64,000 nucleotides of DNA, from IMG/VR virus record IMGVR_UViG_3300027759_003827, positions 24,817 through 88,816 of that record; one strand, 5' to 3'. Shown one piece after another: positions 12,456-14,401 of the stretch. A program made the translations under genes and the position numbers. This DNA is from a virus. Positions within the stretch are counted from its first letter, which is position 1. Every line of letters starts with the position of its first letter. The notes under the pieces are model-generated. The model was given only the letters and a program-made list of their open reading frames with translations. It did not search any database and was not told where the DNA came from.

Positions 12456-12791
12456 AAGTTACTGTTCTTTAACTAATTTTTATTTTTTAGTTATTAATTT
12501 GTTTTCTAATTTATCTATGCGTGAATCTATAATAGCAACTAGACTGTCCTGACGACTGTCCATTTCTCTGTGTATATTATCAAATTGATCGTTCATATCT
12601 CTATAAACATGTGATTGATTGTGATGTACACATCTTTCAACTTCCTTTAGATGTTCTTCTAATCTACTTACCTTAACGAAAGCATAAACAGCAACTATTG
12701 CAACAGCAATAACCACTACAAATGCTATCCCTAAAACGAATGATAGTGTTTCCATAATTTATTTCTCCTGTATGTTAAAGAACAGTAACTT
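12456..12791. repeat. perfect 18-bp inverted repeat enclosing ORF 12480-12755
   Basis: aagttactgttctttaac (12456-12473) / gttaaagaacagtaactt (12774-12791). Confidence 0.9.
12480..12755 (-). CDS. membrane-anchored coiled-coil protein
   Basis: N-terminal TM helix, then heptad-like region. Confidence 0.7.
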   Translation of the reverse strand: METLSFVLGIAFVVVIAVAIVAVYAFVKVSRLEEHLKEVERCVHHNQSHVYRDMNDQFDNIHREMDSRQDSLVAIIDSRIDKLENKLITKK

Positions 12792-12792
12792 G

Positions 12793-12951
12793 CTGTAGGG
12801 GCTGGAATCGAACCAGCACGCTGCGATTCAATATAAGACAAATAAGCCGGCTTTGTGGTCAACCCATATCTTACATCTATCTCTGATCAGCACCCCCTAG
12901 ACGAGAGGGCACGTCTGCCACGAGGAGCGACCTCTTTTCCGCCACCCTACA
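12793..12951 (-). ncRNA. tRNA-like RNA (~160 nt) with D-loop hairpin insertion and ~80-nt variable arm; GUC at the anticodon position
   Basis: acceptor TGTAGGG/CCCTACA+G; T arm GCTGG-TTCGATT-CCAGC; D arm GCGGAA..TGGCAGACGT; CCCTC-TCGTCTA-GGGGG. Confidence 0.8.
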
Positions 12952-12956
12952 ATTTA

Positions 12957-13205
12957 TTAATCGATAACGTCTTCACTAAGGTCGATATCAAACTTCGATT
13001 GATTAATTCTAGCTTGCTCTGCTTCTTTAACCATTCTAATCCAGGTCATAGATACATCTACTGGAGCTAGAATCCAGGCCATCATTAATACCATAATAGA
13101 ATCCATTTCTGGAGATGTTCCGTAATCTAACCCTCTAGTTCTATACTTGATGTTAAGACGGTAGAAGCAGTAAATAATACAGATAATGTAGTAAATAAAA
13201 AACAT
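12957..13205 (-). CDS. small membrane protein
   Basis: two hydrophobic segments; start moved to ATG 13205 to avoid tRNA-Gln. Confidence 0.6.
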   Translation of the reverse strand: MFFIYYIICIIYCFYRLNIKYRTRGLDYGTSPEMDSIMVLMMAWILAPVDVSMTWIRMVKEAEQARINQSKFDIDLSEDVID

Positions 13206-13220
13206 ATAATTTAAGTTTAG

Positions 13221-13291
13221 TTCCCACTCATGGATTCGAACCACAACAAACAGTACCAAAAACTGTCGTACTACCGTTATACTAAATGGGA
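13221..13291 (-). tRNA. tRNA-Gln(TTG)
   Basis: TCCCATT/AGTGGGA acceptor, ACAGT-TTTTGGT-ACTGT, GGTTCGAATCC. Confidence 0.92.
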
Positions 13292-13972: not shown

Positions 13973-14401
13973 TGGTGGAGATGGAGGGATTCGAACCCTC
14001 GTCTCCAGAAGTATAAATAATACCATTCTTACATGCTTTAGATCTACATTTTAAGCTGATCAGTAAAGGGCCGTACAGTTAAGTACCAGTTACCACCACT
14101 TGGTTTTATGACTACCAAGAAACTCCCAGAAGGAGCAGAGCTATAATACTGAGACTATAGCGGGGTTCACAATCCTTATTTAATGAGTCGATTGTGAGTA
14201 CTCATCGAATTCTGTTCCAAGGTATTCGCACCCGATGCAATTAAGCCGCTACTGCGTACTCGTTCGCGCCTACGAAAGACATTAAGTCTTCGAAGGTCAT
14301 AGTTGACATTTCGTCGTTTGTTGTTCGATAGAATATTTGAGTTCTACCACCTCTTGCATGCGATACTATCCATCTCATCTGGATCAAGTCCAGGCATCCC
14401 C
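13973..14401 (-). ncRNA. ssrA: tmRNA; tag reading frame 14315-14241
   Basis: 5' GGGGATG pairs with CATCTCC-ACCA (G3:U70), T arm GAGGG-TTCGAAT-CCCTC, tag ending YAVAA*. Confidence 0.95.

What the first reader, a model, noticed from the sequence alone, without database searches (positions are those of the whole stretch)
12793..12951. Giant tRNA-like RNA with a D-loop hairpin insertion and an ~80-nt variable arm
Seen (minus strand): perfect 7-bp acceptor TGTAGGG/CCCTACA with discriminator G, and a canonical T arm GCTGG-TTCGATT-CCAGC. The Leu/Ser-type D arm (TGGCGGAA...TGGCAGACG) is interrupted by an extra GAGG-TCGCT-CCTC hairpin. The anticodon arm is CCCTC-TCGTCTA-GGGGG (GUC centre, but C33 and U37, which are non-canonical). 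The variable arm is a long irregular helix (GCTG/CAGC, ATGTAAGATA/TGTCTTATAT, TGGGTTG/CGGCTTA). Known: GUC plus G73 are Asp identity elements, while a long variable arm plus G73 suits SerRS. Inference: not a normal decoding tRNA. It may be a tRNA mimic, such as a decoy for anticodon nucleases, a synthetase or ribosome ligand, or an aminoacyl donor for a non-ribosomal reaction.
Basis: partly seen in the sequence, partly recalled or inferred. Interest (0 to 1): 0.8.

Follow-up and report, generated by a model that had tools for sequence, protein, structure and literature searches.

The report
Giant-armed tRNA-like RNA in phage
This lake phage carries a real, strongly conserved gene for an RNA built like a transfer RNA with aspartate-type marks, a loop that looks unfit for reading codons and a 72-base side arm ending in a self-pairing tip; related bacteria keep shorter copies beside an asparagine-type regulator, so it probably works away from the ribosome.

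Summary
Window 12793-12951 (minus strand) encodes a 159-nt tRNA-shaped RNA that ARAGORN and Rfam 15 do not call.

I found homologues in 147 held viral and metagenome loci, giving 116 distinct sequences of 93-176 nt. Covariation is strong: 25 of 42 pairs change on both sides, and 98.8% of cells pair against 38-45% when the partner is slid.

Family-wide features:
- U1-A72, G73 and C74.
- A Leu-like D arm.
- A loop U-C-G-U-C-U-C/A: a GUC centre with C33 and U37.

Phage forms add a D-loop insert and a ~72-nt variable arm. That arm carries GGGUUGACCAC plus a variable perfect palindrome.

Short 111-113-nt forms lie in arrays of 2-3 copies with Bacteroidota-type promoters, divergent from an AsnC-like regulator.

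This scan has found the family before on other DNA. I re-tested the AsnC link and the self-complementary tips here.

Most likely it is a non-decoding, chargeable tRNA mimic tied to aspartate/asparagine metabolism. The mechanism is inferred, not shown. The family is undescribed as far as I could search; one 2023 catalogue entry could not be checked.

The parts
12793..12951 (-). Whole tRNA-like RNA gene, 159 nt, from U1 to discriminator G73
   Evidence: Read. CM R1 scores it 148.9 bits. It is the single copy in the 88.8-kb record.
12945..12951 (-). Acceptor stem, 5' strand TGTAGGG
   Evidence: It pairs with 12794-12800. Six of the 7 pairs change on both sides among 47 sequences, and U1-A72 is invariant there.
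12911..12942 (-). D arm: 3-bp stem GCG/CGT, A14 A15, G18 G19 (12918-12919), with an inserted hairpin
   Evidence: The 11:24 pair covaries, C-G in 6 and U-A in 41 sequences. T8, G9, A14, A15, G18 and G19 are invariant.
12922..12934 (-). Extra hairpin in the D loop, GAGG-TCGCT-CCTC
   Evidence: Of 116 distinct family members, 78 have an insert of 9 nt or more here, with 53 different sequences, and 52 of the 78 fold to 3 bp or more. In 49 of the 78 the insert is a perfect palindrome of 8 nt or more; this copy's insert is not.
12893..12909 (-). Anticodon-like arm CCCTC-TCGTCTA-GGGGG; loop 12898-12904, GUC at 12900-12902
   Evidence: The 30:40 pair covaries (A-U 32, U-A 8, G-C 3, U-G 3, C-G 1). GTCT was invariant in the 47 sequences found without reference to this arm.
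12820..12891 (-). Variable arm, 72 nt, closed by GCTG/CAGC
   Evidence: Helices 4-7 cover 17 pairs, of which 12 change on both sides.
12855..12865 (-). Conserved tip motif GGGTTGACCAC
   Evidence: GACCAC is present in 93 of 116 distinct sequences, i.e. in the long forms. The motif's reverse complement occurs only once in the window, at this site itself, so no other target lies in the window.
12844..12853 (-). Self-complementary tip AAGCCGGCTT
   Evidence: Of the 93 long forms, 90 have a perfect palindrome of 8-12 nt at this place. There are 16 different longest-palindrome words in all, 14 of them 8 nt or longer.
12801..12817 (-). T arm GCTGG-TTCGATT-CCAGC
   Evidence: Four of the 5 pairs change on both sides. 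The GTTC.A..C loop letters are invariant.
12793..12800 (-). Acceptor 3' strand CCCTACA plus discriminator G73 (12793)
   Evidence: G73 occurs in 114 of 116 distinct sequences; the two exceptions are the cut L070 copy (ends in C) and L104, a full-length copy with A73.
12792..12792 (-). C74, the first base after the discriminator
   Evidence: It is C in 96 of 96 long and 25 of 25 short distinct instances. Only 7 of 360 canonical tRNAs in the same loci have C there. This is unexplained.
12957..13205 (-). Upstream 82-aa ORF with two predicted membrane helices; its stop lies 5 nt before the RNA
   Evidence: The same ORF family lies upstream of 69 of 119 long-form instances, and in 57 of those it ends within 5 nt of the RNA. 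It lies upstream of 0 of 37 short forms. It has no PHROG or NCBIfam match. This is a syntenic neighbour, not shown to be a partner.

Best explanation
The element is a working gene for a tRNA-shaped RNA that does not decode.

It belongs to an undescribed family. The family joins a class II (Leu-like) tRNA body, a tRNA-Asn-like acceptor end (U1-A72, G73) and a tRNA-Asp-like anticodon centre (G34 U35 C36, usually C38) set in a loop with C33 and U37.

Inferred steps:
1. It is transcribed with the phage's tRNA/tmRNA cluster.
2. It is cut out by the host's tRNA-processing enzymes and folds into an L shape.
3. It is charged with aspartate by the host AspRS.
4. It acts off the ribosome in aspartate/asparagine metabolism. 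It could be a carrier on which Asp is amidated to Asn, or a ligand that ties up that machinery.

In the phage branch, a 72-nt arm presents a conserved motif and a self-complementary tip, which would let two molecules pair.

Shown here: the structure, its conservation, the family, the genomic company and presence in RNA libraries.
Not shown: processing, charging, dimerisation and function.
For: - The structure is real: 25 of 42 pairs have changes on both sides, none of 500 shuffles reaches that count, and covariation is 0.359 against at most 0.075 for slid partners.
- The tertiary-fold letters U8, A14, A15, G18, G19 and the T loop are invariant.
- Family breadth: 55 viral contigs share the tip 20-mer; 117 share the anticodon-arm pattern, and all 47 newly listed ones are full length at 110-167 bits; 38 metagenome stretches match a third pattern.
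- Identity marks over 116 distinct sequences: U1-A72 in 115; G73 in 114; loop TCGTCTC in 99, TCGTCTA in 9, TTGTCTC in 4, CCGTCTA in 2, TCGTCTT in 2.
- These match four or five of the five strong Asp determinants G73, G34, U35, C36, C38 (PMC9976931, section 29 read). They also match the U1-A72 pair that lets GatCAB accept Asp-tRNA(Asn) (passage of PMC9976931; PMC1635274, search listing).
- C33 and U37 argue against decoding. A canonical tRNA-Asp is present as well in 18 of 126 long-form loci.
- Bacterial copies: 111-113-nt forms in arrays of 2-3. TTTG-N17-23-TAnnTTTG lies upstream of 24 of 36 copies. A divergent 156-aa regulator sits next to the array in 18 loci. It has Lrp/AsnC domains, and its best NCBIfam model is the AsnC equivalog at 181.7 bits; the next Lrp-type model scores 74.9.
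- Phage context: 95 of 126 long-form loci have a tRNA within 3 kb, and all 434 neighbouring tRNA/tmRNA genes lie on the element's strand.
- RNA libraries: two metatranscriptome contigs with no differences cover 12750-13263 and 12802-12963.
Against: - No processing, CCA end, charging or partner was observed.
- The metatranscriptome evidence is contigs at low depth (6.4 and 3.8), and DNA carry-over is not excluded.
- This window's copy has A38, not C38, so it keeps only four of the five strong Asp determinants.
- U1-A72 departs from the G1-C72 that helps E. coli AspRS position the acceptor end.
- GatB was not found in the Bacteroides thetaiotaomicron control, in this phage record, or in any of 5 phage genomes that carry the element, four of them at least 90% complete. 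Whether the real hosts have GatCAB was not testable here.
- The AsnC-like regulator scores below NCBIfam's cut-off (181.7 against 227).
- The 18 regulator-linked loci are 88-100% identical in that protein. They are therefore one narrow clade, not 18 independent cases.
- The invariant C74 is not explained.
Confidence: 0.4

Rival explanations
1. It is a decoy or sponge. The tRNA mimic soaks up a host protein that binds tRNA-Asp-like loops, such as an anticodon nuclease, a toxin or AspRS itself, and is never used as an aminoacyl carrier.
For: - The loop letters are invariant while the stems drift, as expected of a protein-recognition site.
- The element sits in phage tRNA clusters.
- That phage tRNAs evade tRNA-targeting defences through anticodon-loop changes is recalled knowledge, not checked in a paper here.
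Against: - Bacteria keep their own promoter-driven arrays beside an AsnC-like regulator, which a purely anti-defence role does not explain.
- The intact acceptor end with G73 and U1-A72 would be unnecessary for a loop decoy.
Confidence: 0.17
2. It is an unusual but working tRNA-Asp: a class II-shaped isoacceptor that still reads GAC/GAU, with loop changes that protect it from a host nuclease.
For: - ARAGORN calls the 93-nt family member L165:1081-1174 tRNA-Asp(gtc).
- The GUC centre is invariant.
- The element lies in tRNA arrays on the same strand as the tRNAs.
Against: - C33 occurs in 112 of 116 and U37 in 116 of 116 distinct sequences. U33 and a purine at 37 are near-universal in decoding tRNAs (established knowledge).
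- A canonical tRNA-Asp sits in the same locus in 18 cases, including L165 itself.
- Rfam's tRNA model misses all forms tried, even the 93-nt one.
- The bacterial copies are linked to a regulator, not to tRNA operons.
Confidence: 0.1
3. It is serylated by SerRS through G73 and the long variable arm, like tRNA-Sec or allo-tRNAs. It would then carry serine, or a derivative, for a non-ribosomal step.
For: - G73 plus a long variable arm are what SerRS reads (passage of PMC7609411).
- Allo-tRNAs with GUC anticodons exist (same call).
Against: - SerRS does not read the anticodon, so the invariant GUC and C38 would be unexplained.
- The acceptor/T geometry is 7/5, not 8/4, 9/3 or 8/5.
- The D arm is Leu-like.
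Confidence: 0.07
4. It is a cis-acting processing or stability element. The tRNA-like fold would serve only as an RNase P/Z cut site or a 3' cap for the upstream membrane-protein mRNA.
For: - The upstream ORF ends within 5 nt of the RNA in 57 of the 69 cases where it is present.
- One RNA-library contig spans the ORF and the RNA.
Against: - The ORF is absent upstream of 50 of 119 long forms and of all 37 short forms.
- Bacterial copies are stand-alone units with their own promoter and a terminator-like hairpin.
- An invariant loop and tip motif are not needed for a cut site.
Confidence: 0.06
5. It is a decayed pseudo-tRNA or a chance fold.
For: The single-sequence fold is no better than shuffles.
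Against: There are 116 distinct homologues with compensatory changes in every helix and invariant loops.
Confidence: 0.01

Closest known systems
Bacterial and phage class II tRNA-Leu (Rfam RF00005 tRNA)
   Same: - 7-bp acceptor and 5-bp T arm.
- 3-bp D stem with a GTGGYGRAA...GGYAGAC-type D arm.
- A15-U48, G18G19 and the T loop.
- A stem-loop in the variable position.
- It often lies next to phage tRNA-Leu(UAA).
   Different: - G73 instead of A73.
- A loop with C33/U37 and a GUC centre.
- A variable arm of 72 nt with a conserved tip.
- An extra D-loop hairpin.
- No match to RF00005 even at E up to 10.
tRNA-Asn and tRNA-Asp in the indirect asparagine pathway (AspRS plus GatCAB, the transamidosome)
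   Same: - U1-A72 and G73, as in tRNA-Asn.
- G34 U35 C36 (C38), as in tRNA-Asp.
- This combination is what AspRS and GatCAB each read.
- Bacterial copies lie beside an AsnC-like regulator.
   Different: - GUC rather than GUU.
- A loop that looks non-decoding.
- A class II body with a giant arm.
- No evidence of charging or amidation.
- GatB was not found in the phages or in the one Bacteroidota control genome.
Phage T4 species 1 RNA (rnaC), a stable RNA of unknown function in the T4 tRNA cluster
   Same: - An oversized (139-nt) stable RNA encoded among phage tRNAs.
- It has a tRNA-type T arm and long extra hairpins.
   Different: - No homology: model R1 finds nothing in T4.
- T4 rnaC lacks the clean 7-bp acceptor and the cloverleaf seen here.
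Allo-tRNAs and tRNA-Sec (PMC5389517, search listing only; PMC7609411, passages)
   Same: A long variable arm, G73, odd anticodons including GUC, found in metagenomes.
   Different: - Those have 8/4, 9/3 or 8/5 acceptor/T geometry; this family is 7/5.
- Their arms are far shorter, and they are thought to decode.
Palindromic dimerisation loops such as the HIV-1 DIS (recalled, not checked in a paper here)
   Same: A loop sequence that varies between lineages but stays self-complementary (14 different words of 8 nt or more).
   Different: - The palindrome sits in a tRNA-like RNA of a DNA phage.
- Dimerisation is only predicted: cofold gives a gain of 12-15 kcal/mol.

Membership tests
Canonical tRNA (Rfam RF00005 / ARAGORN) | Cloverleaf with 7-bp acceptor, 5-bp T stem and 7-nt T loop GTTCRANYC | tested here: met
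   All 55 complete copies in the first set have 7 of 7 acceptor pairs. Helices 1 and 9 covary.
Canonical tRNA (Rfam RF00005 / ARAGORN) | U33 and a purine at 37 in the anticodon loop | tested here: not met
   C33 occurs in 112 of 116 and U37 in 116 of 116 distinct sequences. The window copy has the loop TCGTCTA.
Canonical tRNA (Rfam RF00005 / ARAGORN) | Reaches the family's gathering score, or is called by ARAGORN | tested here: not met
   There is no RF00005 match at gathering score or at E up to 10, nor for the 93-, 101- and 113-nt forms at E up to 0.01. ARAGORN of 164 instances.
tRNA-Leu (class II) | Discriminator A73 (major Leu determinant) | tested here: not met
   G73 occurs in 114 of 116 distinct sequences. 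The table passage of PMC9976931 lists A73 for Leu.
tRNA-Asp (substrate of AspRS) | G73, G34, U35, C36, C38 | tested here: inconclusive
   At sequence level, 103 of 116 distinct sequences have all five determinants. The window copy has four (A38). Charging itself is not testable here.
tRNA-Asp (substrate of AspRS) | G1-C72, strictly conserved in bacterial tRNA-Asp | tested here: not met
   U1-A72 occurs in 115 of 116 distinct sequences. PMC9976931 section 29 was read.
tRNA-Asn of the indirect pathway (substrate of GatCAB) | U1-A72 base pair | tested here: met
   The rule comes from a PMC9976931 passage.
tRNA-Asn of the indirect pathway (substrate of GatCAB) | Anticodon GUU; a D loop without the U20a antideterminant | tested here: not met
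   The anticodon centre is GUC throughout. D-loop numbering around position 20 could not be assigned with confidence because of the insert.
Allo-tRNA / tRNA-Sec | 8/4, 9/3 or 8/5 acceptor/T-stem geometry | tested here: not met
   The geometry is 7/5 in all copies.
tmRNA | tRNA-like ends enclosing a tag reading frame and pseudoknots | tested here: not met
   There is no RF00023 match at this place. The phage's real tmRNA is at 13973-14401. The acceptor has U3-A70, not G3-U70.
T4 species 1 RNA (rnaC) | Sequence and structure homology to T4 rnaC | tested here: not met
   Model R1 finds no match in the whole T4 record.

The most novel reading that the evidence does not exclude
The family is a dedicated, non-decoding 'workbench' tRNA.

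Under AsnC-type control, bacteria would charge it with aspartate (read through GUC, C38 and G73). An amidotransferase that reads U1-A72 would convert the aspartate to asparagine. The C33/U37 loop would keep the Asn-charged GUC RNA off the ribosome.

The phage carries an enlarged version. Its self-complementary tips (one in this copy, two in most relatives) would let it pair or chain. That would suit a dimeric AspRS or transamidosome-like particle, so the phage could capture or boost this supply line during infection.
Probability: 0.2. Interest if true: 0.9.

Novelty: new variant of a known kind. Interest (0 to 1): 0.75.

Why it matters
- tRNA-shaped RNAs that work off the ribosome are few, and most were found one at a time.
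- This one is abundant in lake phages and present in bacteria. It has a clear, testable set of identity marks and sits beside an amino-acid regulator.
- If it is charged and amidated, it would be the first RNA kept solely as a scaffold for making an amino acid. It would also explain how a cell avoids miscoding by such a carrier.
- If it pairs through its tips, it would be a natural self-assembling tRNA-like RNA.
- Either way, gene finders and Rfam miss it, so phage and Bacteroidota annotations lack a conserved gene.

Tried and rejected
- Single-sequence folding: no signal.
- Rfam at gathering score and at E up to 10: only chance-level matches, mir-1914 and a CRISPR repeat.
- GenBank phages by blastn with the window copy and with a majority-type copy: no match.
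- Model R1 on the nearest cultured relatives. It found nothing in Flavobacterium phage immuto (53% tail-sheath identity) and nothing in T4. In Microcystis phage Mel-JY01 it found only an ordinary tRNA-Leu.
- Genome-contig scan with the tip 20-mer. It gave 5 hits. One is a real copy on a 518-base MAG contig (L059). Four are coding-sequence coincidences that encode AGFVVNR on the other strand.
- A target for the tip motif inside the window: none beyond the site itself.
- GroEL search to reach a host genome: only phage GroELs were listed.
- Phage-encoded partners. GatB_N, AsnC_trans_reg, class IIb synthetase core and Asn_synthase are all absent from this 54%-complete record. GatB_N was found in 0 of 5 and Asn_synthase in 1 of 5 other phage genomes with the element. 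These records are partly fragments, so absence is weak evidence.
- The idea that the 2-TM ORF is an obligate partner: rejected, because it is upstream of only 69 of 119 long forms.
- An 8-bp acceptor using base -1 with G73: rejected, because base -1 is T, C or A.
- A hammerhead or k-turn reading of the arm's inner loops: considered by eye only and not supported.
- Literature. Five searches and passages of PMC10690425, PMC7609411 and PMC9976931 gave no description of this family. PMC10690425 lists a candidate 'DNAVirus_1850', with 27 IMG/VR hits of which one overlaps a tRNA-Asp call.
- Contig-based RNA evidence cannot give ends, strand or level.
Full report
**What is there**

On the minus strand, window 12793-12951 reads as a 159-nt cloverleaf. 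Its parts are:
- Acceptor TGTAGGG/CCCTACA with discriminator G.
- T arm GCTGG-TTCGATT-CCAGC.
- A Leu-like D arm (TG-GCG-GAA...GGCAGA-CGT) interrupted by the hairpin GAGG-TCGCT-CCTC.
- An anticodon-like arm CCCTC-TCGTCTA-GGGGG.
- A 72-nt arm closed by GCTG/CAGC.

It fills the gap between an 82-aa ORF (12957-13205) and a 91-aa ORF (12480-12755). It lies just downstream of tRNA-Gln, Ser, Thr, Met and a tmRNA, all on the same strand. ARAGORN does not call it. Rfam 15 has no match at gathering score or at E up to 10. Folding the single sequence is uninformative (z -1.29).

The record is an 88.8-kb IMG/VR virus contig, estimated 54% complete. It is a myovirus-like phage with GroEL, a PolA-type polymerase, RNR and a tail sheath. 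Its nearest cultured relatives are Flavobacterium phages, at 53% sheath identity.

**It is a conserved, structured RNA**

- The exact 3' end found four viral contigs with full-length homologues, and covariation was visible by eye.
- The arm-tip 20-mer found 55 viral contigs. All 55 complete copies have 7 of 7 acceptor pairs and G73, at 155-168 nt. One further locus, L009, is cut at its end.
- An alignment of the 47 distinct sequences gives an RNAalifold cloverleaf plus a four-helix arm, with 25 of 42 pairs changed on both sides.
- Counted against controls, 98.8% of cells pair, against 87.0% in shuffles and 38-45% when partners are slid. The covariation score is 0.359 against at most 0.075. None of 500 shuffles reaches the observed number of doubly changed pairs. 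The structure was derived from the same alignment, which favours it. The slid controls and the per-helix counts still leave little doubt.
- Only the predicted tip helix (helix 8) has no support.
- A pattern on the anticodon arm found 117 viral contigs. All 47 newly listed ones hold a full-length copy at 110-167 bits.

**The family is wider than the phage form**

A metagenome scan for copies without the D-loop insert gave 38 stretches. The covariance model found forms of 146-154 nt, many of 111-113 nt, one of 101 nt and one of 93 nt.

Over the 116 distinct sequences collected:
- U1-A72 holds in 115 and G73 in 114. The two G73 exceptions are the cut copy L070 and L104, which has A73.
- The loop is TCGTCTC in 99, TCGTCTA in 9 (the window's type), TTGTCTC in 4, CCGTCTA in 2 and TCGTCTT in 2.
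- The second and third collections required CTCGTCT, so only the first 47 sequences are an unbiased sample for the loop. In them GTCT is invariant.

The base after G73 is C in 96 of 96 long and 25 of 25 short distinct instances. It is C in only 7 of 360 canonical tRNAs of the same loci. I cannot explain this.

**Phage-specific additions**

Of the 93 long forms, 90 carry a perfect palindrome of 8-12 nt directly after GGGTTGACCAC. There are 16 different longest-palindrome words, 14 of them 8 nt or longer, for example AGCCGGCT, GCTTGCAAGC, GCTCGAGC, AGCATGCT and GCGTACGC.
- The inner letters change while self-complementarity is kept.
- An 8-nt palindrome cannot make a stable hairpin.
- The natural reading is therefore pairing between two molecules. 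Cofold predicts a gain of 12-15 kcal/mol for three copies. That is only a prediction, and any long hairpin can swap strands.
- A mutational origin by template switching is an alternative that I cannot exclude.

The D-loop insert is present at 9 nt or more in 78 of 116 sequences, with 53 different sequences. Of these 78, 52 fold to 3 bp or more and 49 contain a perfect palindrome of 8 nt or more. The window's insert is an ordinary 4-bp hairpin, so this copy has one self-complementary site, not two.

**Genomic company in phages**

- Of 126 long-form loci, 95 have a tRNA within 3 kb and 45 hold a tmRNA somewhere in the stretch held. Loci differ in length.
- All 434 neighbouring tRNA/tmRNA genes within 3 kb are on the element's strand.
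- 18 loci also have a canonical tRNA-Asp (the first 46 loci are).
- A ~70-aa two-helix membrane ORF lies upstream of 69 of 119 long-form instances. In 57 of these it ends within 5 nt of U1, and in six the stop overlaps the RNA. It is never found upstream of the 37 short forms. It has no PHROG or NCBIfam match. I read this as inherited synteny.
- None of 123 long forms has a Bacteroidota-type promoter in the 90 nt upstream. This fits co-transcription with the cluster.

**Genomic company in bacteria**

The 111-113-nt forms lie in arrays of two or three copies about 400 nt apart, with no ORFs between them. The contigs carry housekeeping genes: an E1-beta/transketolase-like protein, a PD-(D/E)XK nuclease and anthranilate synthase.
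- Upstream of 24 of 36 copies stands TTTG-N17-23-TAnnTTTG. From memory this is the Bacteroidota promoter consensus.
- A leader hairpin follows the promoter, and a terminator-like hairpin follows the RNA.
- Divergent from the array is a 156-aa protein with HTH_AsnC-type and AsnC_trans_reg domains.
- Its best NCBIfam model is the AsnC equivalog NF008384, at 181.7 bits over the full length. This is below the cut-off of 227, but the next Lrp-type model scores 74.9.
- tblastn finds this protein in 18 of the held loci at 88-100% identity. That makes one narrow clade, so this is one evolutionary observation, not 18.
- The arrangement recalls E. coli asnC-asnA (recalled knowledge).

The 93-nt and 101-nt forms sit in dense tRNA arrays next to canonical tRNA-Asp and tRNA-Asn. 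ARAGORN calls the 93-nt one tRNA-Asp(gtc). Rfam's tRNA model calls neither.

**Expression**

Six metatranscriptome runs share words with the region. I laid four of them. One run has a 514-nt contig with no differences over 12750-13263, spanning the ORF and the RNA. Another run has a 162-nt contig over 12802-12963. Depths are low (6.4 and 3.8, against 41-113 over the tmRNA). Contigs show neither ends nor strand, and DNA carry-over is possible. This is weak support for transcription.

**What it most likely does**

All letters needed for the L-shaped fold are kept, so processing and CCA addition by host enzymes are plausible (inference).
- The review PMC9976931 (section 29) names G73, G34, U35, C36 and C38 as the strong aspartate determinants. 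The family has them; this copy has A38.
- The same review (passage) states that GatCAB accepts Asp-tRNA(Asn) through U1-A72 and rejects tRNA-Asp through G1-C72 and U20a. The family has U1-A72.
- C33 and U37 would be expected to cripple decoding (established knowledge of U33 and purine 37). A GUC RNA carrying asparagine would need exactly that.
- Together with the AsnC-like neighbour, the most coherent reading is an off-ribosome aspartate/asparagine carrier or a ligand of that machinery.

Against it:
- Nothing was shown biochemically.
- GatB is missing from the one Bacteroidota control genome and from the phages.
- I could not reach Bacteroidota genomes to test co-occurrence.

I put this reading at 0.4, a decoy at 0.17, a working tRNA-Asp at 0.10, a serine carrier at 0.07 and a mere processing element at 0.06.

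**Relation to earlier notes of this scan**

Look-ups showed that other agents have met this family in at least 11 genomes. They proposed the AsnC link, the Asp-to-Asn carrier idea and the self-complementary phage loops.
- I had reached the Asp/Asn-chimera idea and the covariation before opening them.
- I took from them the lead to look for bacterial copies beside AsnC and the attention to palindromes. I tested both with my own calls (59-73, 71, 83, 102, 103).
- Their claims of high expression and of GatCAB as genomic company were not tested here.

**Novelty**

The RNA is not in Rfam 15 and not called by ARAGORN. My five literature searches found no description.

One catalogue of candidate phage RNAs (PMC10690425; abstract, section 2.3 and passages read) lists a motif that overlaps a tRNA-Asp call once in 27 hits. 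It may be this family, but its supplement was closed.

I class the element as a new variant of a known kind (tRNA-like RNAs). It could be something categorically new if the carrier role holds.

Noticed in passing
L066:4534-4678, L066:4977-5099, L080:14131-14228, L091:4500-4609, L109:5808-5915, L105:1311-1403: A second set of unannotated oversized tRNA-like RNAs sits in the same phage tRNA clusters. They have acceptor AGTCAGG/CCTGACT, a Leu-like D arm and a normal T arm, but run to 93-145 nt with non-tRNA middles. The 5' 15-mer occurs in 19 of 172 held loci, with up to 4 copies per locus; it is not in the window. ARAGORN calls only one of them, as tRNA-Leu.
   Followed up: partly
L067:2669-2808 and L158:2664-2804: A 140-nt RNA with acceptor AATCAAG/CTTGATT, a T arm and two long internal hairpins. 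ARAGORN does not call it.
   Followed up: no
window 12792 and all homologues: The base after the discriminator is always C (121 of 121 distinct instances). Neighbouring canonical tRNAs almost never have C there (7 of 360) and none encodes CCA. This may bear on 3' processing.
   Followed up: partly
window 13973-14401 and tmRNAs of related loci: The phage encodes a tmRNA. ARAGORN reads the tag ANEYAVAA here, but 23-24-residue tags such as DEMSTMTFEDLMSFVGADYALAA in many relatives. No smpB search was made.
   Followed up: no
window 12957-13205 (minus): A small protein with two predicted membrane helices and a charged tail is conserved upstream of many phage copies. It has no PHROG or NCBIfam match.
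   Followed up: partly
directly 3' of the element in L012, L021, L028, L036, L038, L042, L048, L051, L052: A recurrent conserved stretch beginning CCTGAACACAGTG follows the RNA in at least nine loci. Another stretch, AACCGTCGGAAGCTCATC..., follows it in L002, L031 and L053. These may be further small RNAs.
   Followed up: no
L058, L060, L061, L062: The 20-base tip motif also occurs in bacterial genes, where the opposite strand encodes AGFVVNR (dehydrogenase-like and cobyric-acid-synthase-like frames). This is a coding coincidence, not an RNA.
   Followed up: yes
L154:6900-8000, L138:900-2200: Each bacterial short copy is its own unit: a promoter-like TTTG/TAnnTTTG, a ~25-nt leader hairpin, the RNA, then a conserved hairpin AAACCT...AGGTTT and a second hairpin.
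   Followed up: partly
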